DNA of 62,749 nucleotides, filler included, from Candidatus Woesearchaeota archaeon (lineage in GTDB: Archaea > Nanobdellota > Nanobdellia > Woesearchaeales > GCA-2687795): the NCBI GenBank assembly GCA_030753365.1. It is 5 parts of 5 records of this genome, joined end to end, with 100 filler letters (N's around TTAATTAATTAA, not from the genome) between each part and the next. Parts side by side here need not be neighbours in the genome. Positions count along the whole stretch, not along the records: positions 1 to 26,620 come from JASMCJ010000060.1; 4 more parts are not named here. One strand, given 5' to 3'. Each line of letters opens with the position of its first letter. Position 1 is the first letter of the stretch. This document shows, one piece after another, positions 15,001 through 21,000 of the stretch. Made by a program: the position numbers.

Positions 15001-18000
15001 TTTTTGATACATGGAATGTAGTATATAAGGCAAGAAGAATTTGGTTGTAAAAAAGAGGATGAACATGGCTAATGTTAAAGGCTGGATAAAGAATTTTTAT
15101 TCAAGAGGAAAGGGAAGAGCAATATATGCCAAAGACAACATTAAAGAAAAAGTAGTAAATACTAAAGATAACCTTAAGCGTAGACATCATGAAAGAAAGA
15201 ACACAAGAGAACAAAGAAGAGGAGGTATAAGCACAGCAAAAGCTGAAAAAAGGGATCTTAACACTGCTTATACAGAAACTTTGAGTAACGAGAGATTATC
15301 TTTAGAAGAAAAGAGAGCAAGACTACAGGAGATAGCTGAACAAAGGGATCAACAAAAACAGGTACTACATGATTATAGGGCACAAAGAACAGCAGGCCTT
15401 AGAAACGCTAAAGATAAGGTTAAAACAGGAACAAATGCAGTTGGAAGAGCAGTAAGAACAACAGGAAGAGGCATAGCAACAGGAGCAAGTGCAGTTAAAA
15501 GAGGGTCAACAAAAGTAGCAGCTTCAGCAGCCTCAATAAACTTCCTCCTGCTTCTTGCTGTCACAATTCACTTCATAGACGCAAGAGTATTCGGCTTTAG
15601 CAGAGGACCAGCCACATCAGGCATAATGGTCATTAGCTATACAATTTTGTTTATATACGCTTATTTTATAGTATTCGGAAATGACACAAGCAAATTTCTA
15701 ATATTATCTTCCTTATCCATCTTCAGTTTTTTTCTTCCGATTATAAGGGACTATGTTATACTGCCAGCATTTAGATTTATATCTCCATCAGCATCATTAA
15801 TTTCTGTTAATTTTATTATGATAGTTGCGCCTTTATGGGTTATTTATATAATGTTTAAGCATTCTGGAGATTCGAAGCTAATCAAACTACTCTCAACAGC
15901 TTACGTTTTGGGCTGGTTTATCTTTTTCATGATTCATATTTATACAAACCCTGCTTATACTACTATAAGATTAGATAATCAGGAACTAAGCCTTGCCGAG
16001 TTAAGAACAAAAAATATAGTCGATGTAAAAGGAACAATGAAAAGATTTTTATGGGATCCAGGCAAGTCATTATATCATAAATTCATCAAAACCATAGAAA
16101 GTGCACCTGAACAAGTACAAAAAGCCTGGAAAGCCCAGATAGCCCTTGCCACAGGCGATTATTACACTGGCAAGGTTGATCAGAACGCAAACGAACAGTT
16201 AGGAGTTTATTTAGAAGATATACAAATGGCAGACCCTGAAGTATATGAAGATGAGTCTGTCACAGCCTGGGCAAACCTTAAGGCAAGAACACTAGACAAG
16301 GAAAAGCCAGTAAATGTTACTATAAGCTGCTGGAAAGACAAAAAAACAGAAAGCAATAAAGGCAGAATTTCCCCACAAGAAAACTTCACAATTTACACTC
16401 TGGAAGAAGAAGAAGTTGACTGCTTCTTTGACAAATATAAGTTGGGCAAAGGCTCTCATTCAATAACCTTCTCTGCAGGCTTCAACTTTGAGACAATGTC
16501 TTACCTTAAATCATATTTCATGGACAAGCAGAGAAAAAGAGCCATGAGAAGGGAAGAGATTGACATATTTGATCAGTTTGAGATAGAAGACAAGGATCCC
16601 ATTGCAGTTTACACTGTAGGCCCTGTCATGATTGGCATGGAAATCAGGGAAGATCTTCCTGTTGGTATTGACAGAAACGAGGAAGAAGAAACCTTTGTTT
16701 TAGGCATTACACTAAAGAACAATTGGGAAGGAAAGATTGAAGATGTTACAACTCTCACAATAATCACACCAGAATATGTTAAGCTAATCAAAGACGAATC
16801 AACTAAAAACTATTGTCTGAACTATAAGTTTGATGAAGAATGCAATGAAGAAGATGTTTGCGAATATAAATTAAACCAGGACAGTGAAAGGATAGGCTCT
16901 GTTGATACATACGTTTCATTAAGATGCCCTATAGTTATCGAGAAGGGTGAACAAACTGATAAAAATAATTATGACAGTTTCTTGGGCGATACACCATTAA
17001 CAATAAAATACTTTAAGGTAACTGCAGACTACCAATACGCCTTTGAGCAAGCAATAACTGTTAATGTAAAAGAATCAGATTATAAGTCAGAAGAAAGAAA
17101 GGAAGAAATTCTTATTGATACTATTGTATTGCATCATACAGCAACTTCCACTGCAGAAAAAACAGAAGAAGTTCTTAAAGAGCGTGGTGTTTCAGCTCAT
17201 TATATAATAGACAAAGAGGGCAACATAAAAAATATTGTCCCTTTAGAAAGGACTGCTTACCATGCTGGCTGTAAAGTTGATGAAAATAAATGTGTTGATA
17301 TATATAAAGATATAAACCAAAGGTCAATTGGCATAGAGATTGTTAATACTGGTCAGGAAACTGATAAGTTTACAGATAAACAATACGAAAAGGTTAAGGA
17401 ATTAATAGCCCAAATAACAGAAGAATATTCTATACCAAAGGATAAAGACCATATTTTAGGCCATTACCAAATCACAACAGATAAATGGGACCCTTCACCT
17501 AACTTTGACTGGAATAAAATAGATCTAGGAGATCATCAAACAGTTTATGGTGTTAAATGCCCTTATGATAAAACACATGCTTTAGCCAAGGCTGGTTATC
17601 CACCAGCAAACTGTCCGAATGATTAAGTAGAAACTGATACTATAACAGACCTAGACGTAATAGAAGAGATATTACCATAAAAAATGAAAAACCTAACCAT
17701 TTTATTCATAACAGCCTTGCTAATCGCAGGCTGCCAACCGCAGCAAAGCAATATCATAACCTATGTTGACATCTATAAAGGCATAGACGGATTAGACATG
17801 GACTTCCTGCCTAATTCTCCTCCTAAAGAGATTTATTCTGGTGAAGAATTCTTTGCAGGCATACAACTAGAAAATAAGGGTGCCTTCGACATAGGAAATA
17901 TCGCAAGAAATGAAGGCGAAAAAGGTTATGAAGCATATTTATCTTTAGTCATAGAAGATGATTACATGGAAGTTGCTGAAGAAGGATTCAAAGATATAAT

Positions 18001-21000
18001 ACCATTCAGCCTTGAAGGTAAGAGCACATTCAACCCAAAAGGAACGAAAAACACAACAACCATAAAACTCAAAGCAAAGGATGTTGACACCCAAAGCGAA
18101 TCTCATACATCCCTTATCACAGTCTCAGCCTGCTACAAATACAAAACCACTTTAGGCACAGAAGCCTGTATTGACGCTGACGTTTACAACCTTAACCAAA
18201 AAGCCAAGGCATGCAATGTACAAGACCAAACCTTCTCTGGCCAAGGAGCTCCCGTTGTTATCACAAAAATAGAATCAAGGATGCTGCCTCATGAAGATGA
18301 AAGCAAGGTAAGGCCTTCTTTTATGATTTATATAAAGAATAAAGGCAATGGCCAGGTCATTAAAAGAGATATGATTGAAAATGTATGCACATCTATTACT
18401 CTCGATCATGAAGCATTCAACACAATTTATGCTAATGCAAAACTATCAAACCAACCTTTAGACTGTTCACCTAAAGAGATACAGGAAAGCGAAACTAAAG
18501 AAGGCTACATAAGATTAAAAGACAAAGAAGATTTCATAAGATGCACCTTAACAGAAGGAATAAAAAAGAACAAAGGCACTTATTCAACCCCTTTAACAAT
18601 AGAACTTGATTATGGTTATACGCTGTCAGCCACAAAAGAGGTTAAGATTTTGAAAGAATTAAATTATTAGTGTTAACAAAACTTATTTATATAACCGTCT
18701 CCAGTAATTATTTACTATTTAAAAAAGAGGTGTAATATATGCAGGAAACATATGTCTTATTAATAGGATTTCTAGCTTTAGCATTTGCAGGTATTAAAGC
18801 ATTCATAATCTCAAAGAAAGATCCTGGAACACCAAAGATGAAAGAGATTTCAGATTCCATCCATGAAGGTGCCATGGCTTTTCTTACTAGAGAATACAAA
18901 TATATCATTTGGTTTGTAATTTTTATTGTTATTATACTAGGATTATTCGTTGATAAGACCTGGTTGACTTCAATATGCTTCATTACAGGCGCATTATTTT
19001 CTGCATTGGCTGGAAACCTTGGAATGAGGACTGCCACAAAAGCTAATGTACGAGCTGCAAACGAAGCTAAGAAATCATTAAATAGCGCCTTAAGCACCGC
19101 ATTCTTTTCAGGAACTGTAATGGGCTTCTCAGTGGTAGGCCTTGGATTAATAGGGATTACTGCTTTATACTTATGGACAGGAAACACAAGCACAATTTTC
19201 GGGTTTGCTTTTGGAGCTTCTTCAATCGCACTGTTTGCAAGGGTTGGCGGAGGGATTTACACAAAAGCTGCAGATGTTGGAGCTGATTTGGTAGGCAAAG
19301 TTGAATCTGGCATTCCAGAAGATGATCCAAGAAATCCTGCTGTAATCGCTGATAATGTAGGCGACAATGTTGGCGACGTTGCAGGCATGGGAGCTGACTT
19401 ATTCGAGAGCTATGTTGGAAGCATTATTGCATCCATGGCGTTAGGGGCTGCATTGTTTACTATAAACACAAGAGGAGCTATCTTATTCCCGTTAATGCTA
19501 TCAGGAGTAGGCATCGTTTCAAGCATCATAGGAACATTCTTTGTCAGGGCAAAGAACGAGAAAGACTTGTCGAACGCATTGCAAAGAGGCTTATGGACTG
19601 CAAGCATATTGGTTATAATTGGCGCATGGTTCTTATCAAAATATTTGCTGCCTAGCAATGCTATAGGAGTTTTCATTGCAACAATATCTGGATTAATTGC
19701 AGGCGTAATCATAGGAAAAGTAACAGAATATTATACATCGCATGATTTCAAGCCTGTAAGAACTATTGCCAAATCTTCCCAAACAGGTGCTGCAACGCTT
19801 ATCATAGAAGGTATGGCAACTGGAATGTTTTCTACAATATTTCCTATATTGACTATTGCAGCTGCCATGTTTTCCGCATTTCATTTTGCAGGCATGTATG
19901 GGATAGCTATTGCAGCTGTTGGATTATTGTCAACATTAGGTATTTCCCTAGCTATTGATGCTTACGGCCCTGTTGCAGACAACGCAGGCGGCATTGCAGA
20001 GATGGCTGGATTAGGTAAAAAGATAAGAAAAAGAACAGACGCTTTAGATTCTGTGGGCAACACAACCGCAGCTATTGGAAAAGGGTTTGCAATAGGCTCC
20101 GCAGCCTTAACCGCATTAGCTCTTTTTGTATCATATGTAACAATTGTAAGCGCTAAACTGCCAGGCTTTAGTATTGAAATTACAAATCCTAAAGTAATGG
20201 TCGGCTTATTAATTGGAGGTGTTCTTCCATTCTTATTCAGTTCAATGACTATGAAAGCTGTAGGAAGAGCCGCCCAGGATATTATCTCAGAAGTAAGAAA
20301 GCAATTCAAAACCATTCCAGGATTGCTTAAAGGCAGGAAAGGCGCAAAGCCTGATTCAGAATCCTGTGTAGATATTGTCACAAAAAGCGCATTAAGAGAA
20401 ATGATTTTACCAGGCTTGATTGCTATAATCATTCCTATTGTAATAGGCATCATGCCAGGATTAGGCCCTGAAGCATTAGGAGGTTTATTAGCAGGATCAT
20501 TAGTTACAGGAGTTGTAATTGCTATTTTCATGGCAAACACTGGCGAAGCCTGGGACAATGCCAAGAAGTACATAGAAATGGGCAACTATGGCGGTAAAGG
20601 CTCTGATAACCATAAGGCTGCTGTTATTGGGGATACAATAGGAGATCCCTTTAAAGATACCTGTTCTCCGTCGCTAAATATTCTTATTAAGCTTATGAGC
20701 ATTGTAGCTTTGGTATTTGTGCCGCTTTTTTTATAATTTCCACTTTATTTATAATAAGCCCGATCGTATCTTTATTAGAAAGATTTATAAATTCTTTTTC
20801 TCTAAAATTTCTAATCACAGTCTGGTTTATTCAAGCAATTAAATTGTAATTTTTGTTTAAAACTAAAAATCACTTAATAATCCTAAGGTAAGAGAATTTG
20901 GTGATTAGAAATGAAAAAAGGATTAAAGTTTACAAAAGAACAATTGGAAGATTTATATCATAATAAAAAGTTATCATTAAGTAGTATTGGTAAGAAATTC

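What a model noticed while it worked through the whole genome (the two positions that open the first line are those of the whole stretch)
15065..18670. Conserved membrane scaffold with an interchangeable peptidoglycan-hydrolase tip
g793 is a membrane-anchored 650-aa scaffold ending in an Amidase_2 domain and followed by a lipoprotein gene; the scaffold is kept across the order while its tip is swapped among five unrelated murein hydrolase families. It is a vertically inherited wall-drilling device with a polymorphic enzyme tip tuned to the host, i.e. Woesearchaeales attack or live on bacteria. New: a core locus, not sporadic gene transfer, behind peptidoglycan hydrolases in DPANN.
Evidence so far: Call 147: scaffold (without the tip) in 43 of 81 genomes at E<=1e-20. 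Calls 148, 152: of 15 loci, 8 end in a hydrolase: Amidase_2 (here, E 3e-32), NlpC/P60 (same-genus genome), M23 (2), SLT (3), glucosaminidase (1); 6 tails have no Pfam match and 1 is 82 aa and was not scanned. Lipobox gene g794 follows in 9 of 15, pilin-like g511 precedes in 9 of 15 (in G000 it lies on C38). Zinc-ligand motifs of the amidase are present.
(Added by a program. Inside this text positions count along the whole contig: they may not be those of the stretch shown here. "Call 12" and the like, gene names such as g00115 and contig names such as C1 are that model's own, and its searches are not shown. The text may have been shortened before it was handed on; [...] marks where a part breaks off. 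The agent that wrote the report below was given it as the finding of a first reader that could run no searches.)

Follow-up and report, generated by a model that had tools for sequence, protein, structure and literature searches.

The report
Core archaeal surface operon displaying wall-cutters
Tiny symbiotic archaea (Woesearchaeota and relatives) share a five-gene set of predicted surface proteins whose outer ends carry swappable add-ons; in about a quarter of the Woesearchaeales examined, this genome included, the add-on is an enzyme predicted to cut bacterial cell walls, so the set is likely a general host-contact structure that some lineages armed against bacteria.

Summary
In detail: an 853-aa five-helix membrane protein ends in an Amidase_2 domain, followed by a lipoprotein, and relatives carry eight hydrolase families at the same spot. 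A same-genus amidase/NlpC-P60 swap is supported. The pair belongs to a five-gene operon (pilin-signal protein, scaffold, three lipoproteins paralogous to the scaffold) that is nearly universal in the order and present in other orders of the class. Only 21 of 91 complete order scaffolds carry a hydrolase, 35 have no tip and 35 have other tips. None of 28 from other orders carries one, and Parvarchaeales-like genomes keep the operon with no SLT found. Only 14 of 100 SLT and 2 of 49 M23 genes in 80 genomes lie at this locus, so it is not the source of DPANN hydrolases. Best reading: an undescribed core envelope or contact platform of Ig-like subunits whose C-termini display accessory domains, armed with wall hydrolases in some lineages. 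Activity, host and assembly are untested.

The parts
15065..17626 (+). Scaffold gene (853 aa): basic N-terminus, five membrane helices, stalk helix, two-domain Ig-like core, amidase tip
15065..15520 (+). Basic, poorly conserved N-terminal region (aa 1-152), inferred cytoplasmic
   Evidence: 38 K/R against 16 D/E, no hydrophobic segment; inside by the positive-inside rule (inference)
15521..15934 (+). Five predicted transmembrane helices (aa 153-290); the odd number would put the C-terminal part outside
   Evidence: hydropathy; helices in the model
16025..16153 (+). Predicted 43-residue stalk helix (aa 321-363), about 6-7 nm
   Evidence: model helix H167-209; length from 1.5 A per residue
16169..17071 (+). 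Conserved core (aa 369-669): predicted Ig-like beta-sandwich completed by the last strand, with a second beta domain inserted; four nearly invariant Cys; paralogous to the lipoproteins
   Evidence: pLDDT 89; best Z 9.5, rmsd 2.4, 90 aligned; hhalign prob 93.4, E 2.5e-7, 160 columns
17114..17500 (+). Amidase_2 tip (aa 684-812) of AmpD/AmpDh2 type with Zn-ligand and catalytic positions kept; the only match in this genome among four peptidoglycan hydrolase families searched
17684..18670 (+). Lipoprotein LP1 (328 aa): signal and lipobox-like Cys17, same predicted two-domain Ig-like fold; first of three paralogues in relatives (the others lie on C29 and C38 in this genome)
   Evidence: (pLDDT 94)

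Best explanation
This gene pair is part of a conserved five-gene operon of class Nanoarchaeia (a pilin-signal protein, this membrane scaffold and two or three paralogous lipoproteins) that likely builds a membrane-anchored surface platform of Ig-like subunits for contact with a host cell, and here the scaffold ends in an amidase predicted to cut bacterial peptidoglycan at the contact site. Shown: gene order and spread, paralogy of scaffold and lipoproteins, variable C-terminal add-ons, a hydrolase on about a quarter of Woesearchaeales scaffolds and on none of 28 from other orders. Predicted: the fold and outside position. Inferred: that the five products assemble; that the platform is tied to type IV pilin processing; that the tip-less form is the older state, with hydrolases added and exchanged repeatedly from the pool of hydrolase domains these genomes also hang on other surface proteins; that the enzyme opens or loosens the wall of an attached bacterium, as specialised lytic enzymes of secretion systems and phage tails do.
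For: Operon order in 74 of 76 and 63 of 74 loci, between pelota and RFC/PRC genes. Lipoprotein profile in 188 of 189 order genomes and 45 of 62 others (tally includes unpublished G354, G355). Scaffold profile in 37 of 37 tested class-level genomes that had the lipoprotein. All five genes are kept in G000 although scattered over three contigs, with scaffold and LP1 still adjacent. Same long shared strands in both models and hhalign prob 93. Add-ons appear on either paralogue: an SLT on LP1 of a tip-less locus, LP1 tails in 11 of 32 tip-less against 0 of 45 tipped loci (mostly one clade), and the same Cys-rich module on 4 of 68 scaffold tails with 0 shuffled hits. Pilin link: class III-like motif in 58 of 79 upstream proteins; in three f137 genomes the nine downstream proteins have such a motif and no lipobox Cys, with an A24 prepilin peptidase two genes on in two of them. 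Eight hydrolase families at one position; non-enzymatic tips are often FN3/PKD-like.
Against: No assembly, activity, expression or host data. The fold is a generic Ig-like sandwich (best Z 9.5 and 11.2, many ties) and says nothing about function. No match with three profiles in the small-genome families f141 (0 of 9 convincing), f144 and f157, so host-dependent relatives seem to manage without it or have diverged past detection. The neighbours are housekeeping genes, which fits a plain envelope role. Stalk plus one Ig domain would reach only about 10 nm, too short to cross an outer membrane unaided (inference). Some tips look degenerate (L052, L057, L122, judged by eye). In f137 only the pilin-like protein and the first paralogue are firm homologues (prob 95); the third is weak (34), the second undetected (1), and the scaffold weak (32-44) with one membrane helix. 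The class III and lipobox counts come from permissive regular expressions.
Confidence: 0.5

Rival explanations
1. Dedicated wall drill: the scaffold exists to carry a peptidoglycan hydrolase, and unrecognised or missing tips are hidden hydrolases or are supplied by another gene.
For: Eight hydrolase families converge on one position; some proteins stack two (L039, L113, L166, L168, P0061); 55 of 80 order genomes have an SLT somewhere that could serve in trans; an SLT sits on LP1 where the scaffold is tip-less.
Against: 35 of 91 complete order scaffolds and 27 of 28 from other orders stop at the end of the core; many other tips are FN3/PKD-like or Cys-rich; only 1 of 39 long lipoproteins scanned had a hydrolase; f137 keeps the operon with 0 of 3 genomes holding an SLT.
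Confidence: 0.15
2. Foraging: the tethered amidase releases peptides and sugars from dead bacterial walls or shed fragments, and the platform is only a place to hang it; no living bacterial host is attacked.
For: The domain is AmpD-like (NCBIfam AmpD 76 bits, below the cut-off of 143), and AmpD proper recycles fragments (recalled). Short reach. No wall-binding domain was found in this protein. Scavenging is proposed in PMC9723730 (passages), and PMC11606122 cites co-sorting work that found no cell-cell association (passage).
Against: The closest solved relatives are AmpDh2 and AmpDh3, which act on intact wall (recalled). The commonest tip is a lytic transglycosylase, typical of local wall opening (recalled). 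Exchange among enzymes with different bond targets on one structural protein resembles phage tails more than a catabolic pathway (inference). Uptake and catabolic genes were not searched.
Confidence: 0.2
3. Housekeeping envelope structure (S-layer anchor, pilus base or division-related lattice) with no special role in host contact; hydrolase, Ig and Cys-rich domains are passengers that accumulate on any exposed C-terminus.
For: Near-universal, single-locus, beside pelota, RFC and a PRC-barrel gene. Hydrolases are spread over many other surface proteins, among them pilin-signal carriers with up to three hydrolase domains. Tip labels are stable within 25 of 31 families, not hypervariable.
Against: No match to S-layer or pilus families in Pfam, NCBIfam or PDB (inconclusive). 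Catalytic residues are kept in the amidases and in three of four Pfam-positive M23 tips checked by motif. In G000 this is the only such enzyme found, which suggests selection for it at this place.
Confidence: 0.2

Closest known systems
fam00969, large murein transglycosylase proteins of Woesearchaeota and Pacearchaeota (Castelle et al. 2021, PMC8204110; passages and supplement rows seen)
   Same: A lineage-wide, membrane-anchored surface family in which only part of the members (53%) carry a GH23 domain; proposed to act on bacterial walls and hosts.
   Different: Median 1947 aa, signal peptide in 79%, one membrane helix, one hydrolase type reported. The scaffold here is about 400-1400 aa with several membrane helices, lies in a five-gene operon and carries eight hydrolase families or none.
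Modular archaeal peptidoglycan hydrolases such as Woldo (Strock et al. 2025, PMC12352652; section 6 and passages seen)
   Same: [quoted passage not shown]
   Different: Those are secreted enzymes with a wall-binding domain, patchy and often on plasmids; this one is tethered to a core, vertically inherited membrane protein with no recognised wall-binding domain.
Specialised lytic enzymes of nanomachines and virion-associated lysins (VirB1, FlgJ, phage tail and tape-measure lysins; recalled, no call)
   Same: A structural apparatus carries an exchangeable hydrolase (SLT, M23, NlpC/P60, amidase, glucosaminidase) for local wall opening.
   Different: No sequence or fold link was found to any such machine or to viral proteins; no ATPase or channel gene lies in the operon; most copies have no hydrolase.
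AmpDh2/AmpDh3/AmpD zinc amidases (PDB 4bj4, 4bxd, 1j3g)
   Same: Sequence match over the catalytic domain with Zn-ligand and catalytic positions.
   Different: Fused to an archaeal membrane scaffold, no peptidoglycan-binding domain, below the AmpD family cut-off.
Cone-shaped attachment organelle of Nanobdellota archaeon YN1 (PMC11420986; passages seen)
   Same: A large envelope-embedded host-contact assembly in the same phylum whose subunits the passages I saw do not name.
   Different: No evidence links these genes to it; the operon was not detected in the smallest genomes of the class, whose identity I did not establish.

Membership tests
Amidase_2 (PF01510) zinc amidase, tip domain | Profile match above the curated cut-off | tested here: met
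   109.7 bits against 26
Amidase_2 (PF01510) zinc amidase, tip domain | His-His-Asp zinc ligands and catalytic Glu | tested here: met
   H690, H800, D809, E758, aligned to AmpDh2; roles recalled
Amidase_2 (PF01510) zinc amidase, tip domain | Cleaves the MurNAc-L-Ala bond of peptidoglycan | not testable with these tools
   needs an assay
AmpD equivalog (NF008758) | Score above the NCBIfam cut-off; small cytoplasmic protein | tested here: not met
   76.2 bits against 143; 853-aa membrane protein
fam00969 of Castelle 2021 | About 1950 aa, signal peptide, one membrane helix, GH23 domain | tested here: not met
   judged from the family's statistics, as its sequences are not in the table rows seen
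Modular archaeal peptidoglycan hydrolase (Strock 2025) | Catalytic domain plus a cell-wall-binding domain | tested here: not met
   no binding domain in Pfam for P0001; definition read; an unrecognised binding role of the Ig core is not excluded
Archaeal lipoprotein (LP1) | Signal peptide ending in a lipobox Cys | tested here: met
   Cys17 nearly invariant; 200 of 224 paralogues match a lipobox pattern; lipidation itself untested
Type IV pilus-associated system | Class III signal peptides on subunits | tested here: inconclusive
   58 of 79 upstream proteins and 9 of 9 f137 downstream proteins match a permissive pattern; cleavage untested
Type IV pilus-associated system | Assembly ATPase and TadC-type membrane platform in the locus | tested here: inconclusive
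   no such conserved neighbour among the frequent families of 101 loci; they may lie elsewhere, not searched; an A24 peptidase is near in 2 of 3 f137 loci
Archaeal S-layer protein | Sequence or fold match to a known S-layer family | tested here: inconclusive
   none listed
Fusexin/HAP2 membrane fusogen | Domains I and II with fusion loops in addition to Ig-like domain III | tested here: inconclusive
   only domain III matches (Z 9.7, rmsd 2.7, 107 aligned; Z 9.2, rmsd 2.5, 97 aligned), tied with many unrelated Ig folds

The most novel reading that the evidence does not exclude
The five-gene operon encodes the unidentified host-attachment or feeding apparatus of most Nanoarchaeia, built from a pilin-processed sugar-binding subunit and a ring or lattice of paralogous Ig-like rods. 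Its tips record the host: bare or adhesive where no wall needs opening, armed repeatedly with unrelated peptidoglycan hydrolases where Woesearchaeales parasitise bacteria. That would be the first defined machine for archaeal parasitism of bacteria and a sequence marker for host type.
Probability: 0.3. Interest if true: 0.88.

Novelty: new variant of a known kind. Interest (0 to 1): 0.62.

Why it matters
No host of any Woesearchaeales is established in the papers I read, and bacterial hosts have been proposed only from scattered hydrolase genes. This gives a near-universal, undescribed set of five surface proteins to localise by antibody, proteomics or tomography, and a natural comparison of tip-less, adhesin-tipped and hydrolase-tipped lineages against co-occurring bacteria. 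It also corrects the picture: wall hydrolases in these archaea are common (SLT in 55 of 80 genomes) and ride on several surface carriers, of which this is one.

Tried and rejected
Named relatives in genome contigs: no usable pattern from the alignment, and nothing confirmed with the single protein, so the range outside the phylum was not tested; a broad lipoprotein profile returned only 5 proteins because of the word filter. Expression: no RNA holder listed; no reads were laid. ESM Atlas gave only unnamed clusters. Pairwise BLAST of LP1 against the scaffold showed nothing; only profiles did. The pilin-like protein is not a paralogue of the lipoproteins (prob 7.7); its BcsB and CBM-like hits are weak (6 of 65 members each, below cut-off) and it was not folded. 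PDB sequence searches with two profiles gave nothing beyond signal-peptide matches. Foldseek on PDB and viral models gave only low TM-scores. Fusexin likeness was set aside as generic Ig. The idea that tip-less scaffolds are regularly compensated by a hydrolase on a lipoprotein failed (1 of 39). Three look-ups of earlier findings returned nothing on this locus. One paper search returned only unrelated work. State changes on the tree (28 over 102 rows; 12 over 29 hydrolase rows) have no shuffle control and are not used as a test.
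Full report
1. Observation. The window holds an 853-aa ORF at 15065-17626 and a 328-aa ORF at 17684-18670, both on the + strand. The first has a basic N-terminus, five hydrophobic segments from aa 153 to about 290, a cysteine-bearing region, and Amidase_2 at aa 684-812 (E 1.7e-31; hydropathy and residue numbers). The closest solved relatives are AmpDh2, AmpD and AmpDh3. H690, E758, H800, K807 and D809 are in place; their roles rest on that alignment and on recalled AmpD chemistry. 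The second ORF has a signal peptide with Cys17 and no family match. Among SLT, Amidase_2, M23 and NlpC/P60, this amidase is the only match in the genome (94.5% complete). Library labels place the lineage in Woesearchaeota.

2. Spread. The scaffold without its tip matched 126 of 201 order genomes at E<=1e-3, 95 at E<=1e-20 by hand count (tallies include unpublished G132 and G112). A profile found it in 24 of 30 further order genomes, chosen mostly as earlier misses, and in 37 of 37 tested genomes of other orders that had the lipoprotein. The lipoprotein profile matched 233 of 251 phylum genomes: 188 of 189 in the order, mostly with 3-5 matches, and 45 of 62 outside it (includes unpublished G354 and G355). 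Families f141, f144 and f157 gave no convincing match with scaffold, lipoprotein or pilin-like profiles; this is 'not found', not absence. The range outside the phylum was not tested.

3. It is a five-gene operon. I fetched 100 loci from 99 of the 125 other matching genomes, best matches first, so the sample leans toward close relatives. A 390-580-aa protein with a pilin-like N-terminus lies directly upstream in 74 of 76 loci with enough flank, and three lipoproteins follow in 63 of 74. Pelota, RFC and a PRC-barrel gene flank it in 64, 61 and 46 of 101 loci. In G000 the operon is broken up but complete: pilin-like gene and LP3 on C38, LP2 on C29, scaffold and LP1 here. Other orders show pilin-like gene, scaffold and two lipoproteins in most of 28 loci; six lack the upstream gene in place. 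Three f137 genomes, whose pilin-like protein is 43-47% identical to proteins labelled Parvarchaeota, keep the same five-gene order. There the nine downstream proteins have a class III-like motif and no lipobox Cys; the first is a firm homologue (prob 95), the third weak (34), the second undetected, and the scaffold weak with one membrane helix. An A24 prepilin peptidase lies two genes on in two of the three. That Parvarchaeales contact archaeal cells is recalled; the passages I saw of PMC10134863 name no host.

4. Structure. The scaffold model (pLDDT 89) has the membrane helices, a 43-residue stalk helix and two beta domains joined by two 25-residue strands. The LP1 model (pLDDT 94) shows the same pattern, and profiles confirm paralogy (prob 93.4, E 2.5e-7, 160 columns; prob 50 with the closer alignment). 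Fold searches give a generic Ig/FN3/macroglobulin/CARDB-like domain of about 100 residues that spans the first strands and the last strand (best Z 9.5, rmsd 2.4, 90 aligned; Z 11.2, rmsd 1.7, 104 aligned). I infer that the second domain is inserted in the first and that the add-on is joined to the domain next to the stalk, so 'tip' need not mean the far end of a long rod. The inserted domain was not searched alone. The pilin-like protein has only weak sugar-binding-fold hits and was not folded.

5. Tips. Of the 100 order loci, 51 have tails of 80 aa or more, 5 of 30-79 aa, 35 under 30 aa, 8 run off the contig and 1 is split. Of 61 tails scanned, 23 match a hydrolase at E<=0.01: SLT 15 (3 below the curated cut-off), NlpC/P60 2, M23 2, glucosaminidase 2, M15_4 1, Muramidase plus Amidase_2 1. 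My own SLT profile adds one locus (1 hit among threefold shuffles). That gives 24 of 100, or 21 of 91 complete ones; 35 have no tip and 35 have FN3/PKD-like, Cys-rich, degenerate or unassigned tails. Twelve divergent order loci gave 5 more, one by my profile only. Among 60 of 109 tailed library proteins, 20 had a hydrolase, adding Amidase_3. Of 28 loci from other orders, 27 end within about 30 aa of the core and one has a 72-aa Cys-rich tail; none has a hydrolase. Add-ons also occur on LP1: tails in 11 of 32 tip-less and 0 of 45 tipped loci, mostly one clade and so perhaps one event, one with an SLT, and a Cys-rich module shared with 4 of 68 scaffold tails.

6. Inheritance. In a FastTree of 143 cores, 22 of 31 multi-member families are clades and 25 of 31 have one tip label; deep branches are poorly resolved and several long branches meet. 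A 22-row IQ-TREE run puts the window protein, two amidase-tipped relatives and the NlpC/P60-tipped same-genus protein in one clade (100/99), a real exchange. Swaps thus occur at about genus to family depth; strain-level variation could not be seen. The tip-less state outside the order suggests it is older, but the root is weak. The nearest separate relatives of this amidase domain are unnamed 256-263-aa single-anchor proteins at 44-47%; named bacterial amidases are at 35-36%, so the donor is unresolved.

7. The locus does not explain DPANN hydrolases. In 80 order genomes, 55 have an SLT; 110 matches reduce by hand to 100 ORFs, of which 13 are scaffolds and 1 is LP1. M23 occurs in 31 of 80; 2 of 49 ORFs are scaffolds. 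Of 15 off-locus SLT carriers sampled, 5 begin with a pilin-like signal, some with two or three hydrolase domains. In other orders 22 of 44 genomes have an SLT, often in 2000-2500-aa ORFs, including 5 of 9 f141 genomes with no operon match, while f137 has 0 of 3. Operon and hydrolases are therefore separable in both directions.

8. Mechanism. The simplest account is a core envelope platform of paralogous Ig-like subunits, anchored by membrane helices, lipid or a pilin-type signal, whose free C-termini display accessory domains. I put host contact first (0.5) because the add-ons are adhesin-like or wall-lytic, because unrelated hydrolases arrived repeatedly and mostly kept catalytic residues, and because of the pilin link. 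Foraging on dead walls (0.2), a housekeeping structure with passengers (0.2) and a dedicated drill (0.15) remain; they are not fully exclusive. Assembly, location, activity and host are all inferred.

9. Prior work. Peptidoglycan hydrolases and possible bacterial hosts in Woesearchaeota are in print: PMC8204110 (passages; supplement row for fam00969 and about 20 of 51 module 98 rows), PMC9723730 (passages), PMC10936187 (passages), PMC12352652 (passages and section 6). I also saw passages of PMC11606122, PMC11420986 and PMC10134863, and a term search of bioRxiv 10.64898/2026.05.13.725050 found none of six terms (its supplements were not seen). Seven library searches listed no description of this operon or of tip exchange on it. 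The operon's families may be among the unannotated families in the PMC8204110 table, which gives no sequences in the rows seen, and the S2 table of PMC12352652 was not read. Comparisons with VirB1, FlgJ and phage tail lysins are recalled.

10. Verdict. Observation confirmed; interpretation partly supported. An apparently undescribed core operon with exchangeable tips, a new variant of the known theme of hydrolase-armed surface structures. Interest 0.62; 0.88 if it proves to be the attachment apparatus (probability 0.3).

Noticed in passing
window 14168-15050 (+): A 128-aa ORF and a 187-aa nucleotidyltransferase (Pfam NTP_transf_2/Polbeta) sit where the pilin-like gene lies in relatives; possibly an MNT-HEPN-type pair at the rearrangement point.
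   Followed up: no
window 18739-20736 (+): H+-pyrophosphatase directly follows LP1 here and in the same-genus locus L031, replacing LP2 and LP3, so the break-up of the operon predates the split of these species.
   Followed up: partly
L200:2280-6026, L197:2188-4476, L190:2098-3774, L202:919-4233, L203:3218-6499: A second carrier type: pilin-signal proteins of 560-1250 aa bearing SLT, M23, Amidase_2, FN3 or TPM domains, up to three hydrolases in one chain. Possibly a larger source of these hydrolases than this locus.
   Followed up: partly
G312:C1, G360:C1, G331:C13, G256:C7, G208:C1, G349:C1 and others: ORFs of 2000-2500 aa with an SLT domain in other orders of the class, matching the size of fam00969.
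   Followed up: no
L184-L186: In family f137 the downstream proteins have pilin-like signals in place of lipoboxes; a prepilin peptidase or a LamG pilin-like gene is near; a probable transposon pair interrupts the operon in L186.
   Followed up: partly
L052, L057, L003, L084, L122 tails: By eye, degenerate or divergent lysozyme-like and M23-like tails without Pfam match; may bind rather than cut.
   Followed up: partly
G000 C38:3431-5980; L045, L063: RFC small subunit ORFs of about 840-850 aa instead of 320, probably intein-containing.
   Followed up: no
L104, L160, L166, L168, L095, L080: Lipoprotein paralogues expanded to four or five tandem copies.
   Followed up: no
L139:1574-5206, L147:1403-4753: 1100-1200-aa adhesin-like proteins (FN3, DUF4215, MopE, TSP3 repeats) directly upstream of the operon in family f145.
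   Followed up: no
L095:10949-11848 and family f21: An FmrO-family rRNA methyltransferase gene recurs near the operon in about 10 loci.
   Followed up: no
P0159-P0163: Unnamed 256-263-aa single-anchor amidases with a Cys-rich insert, the nearest separate relatives of this tip.
   Followed up: partly
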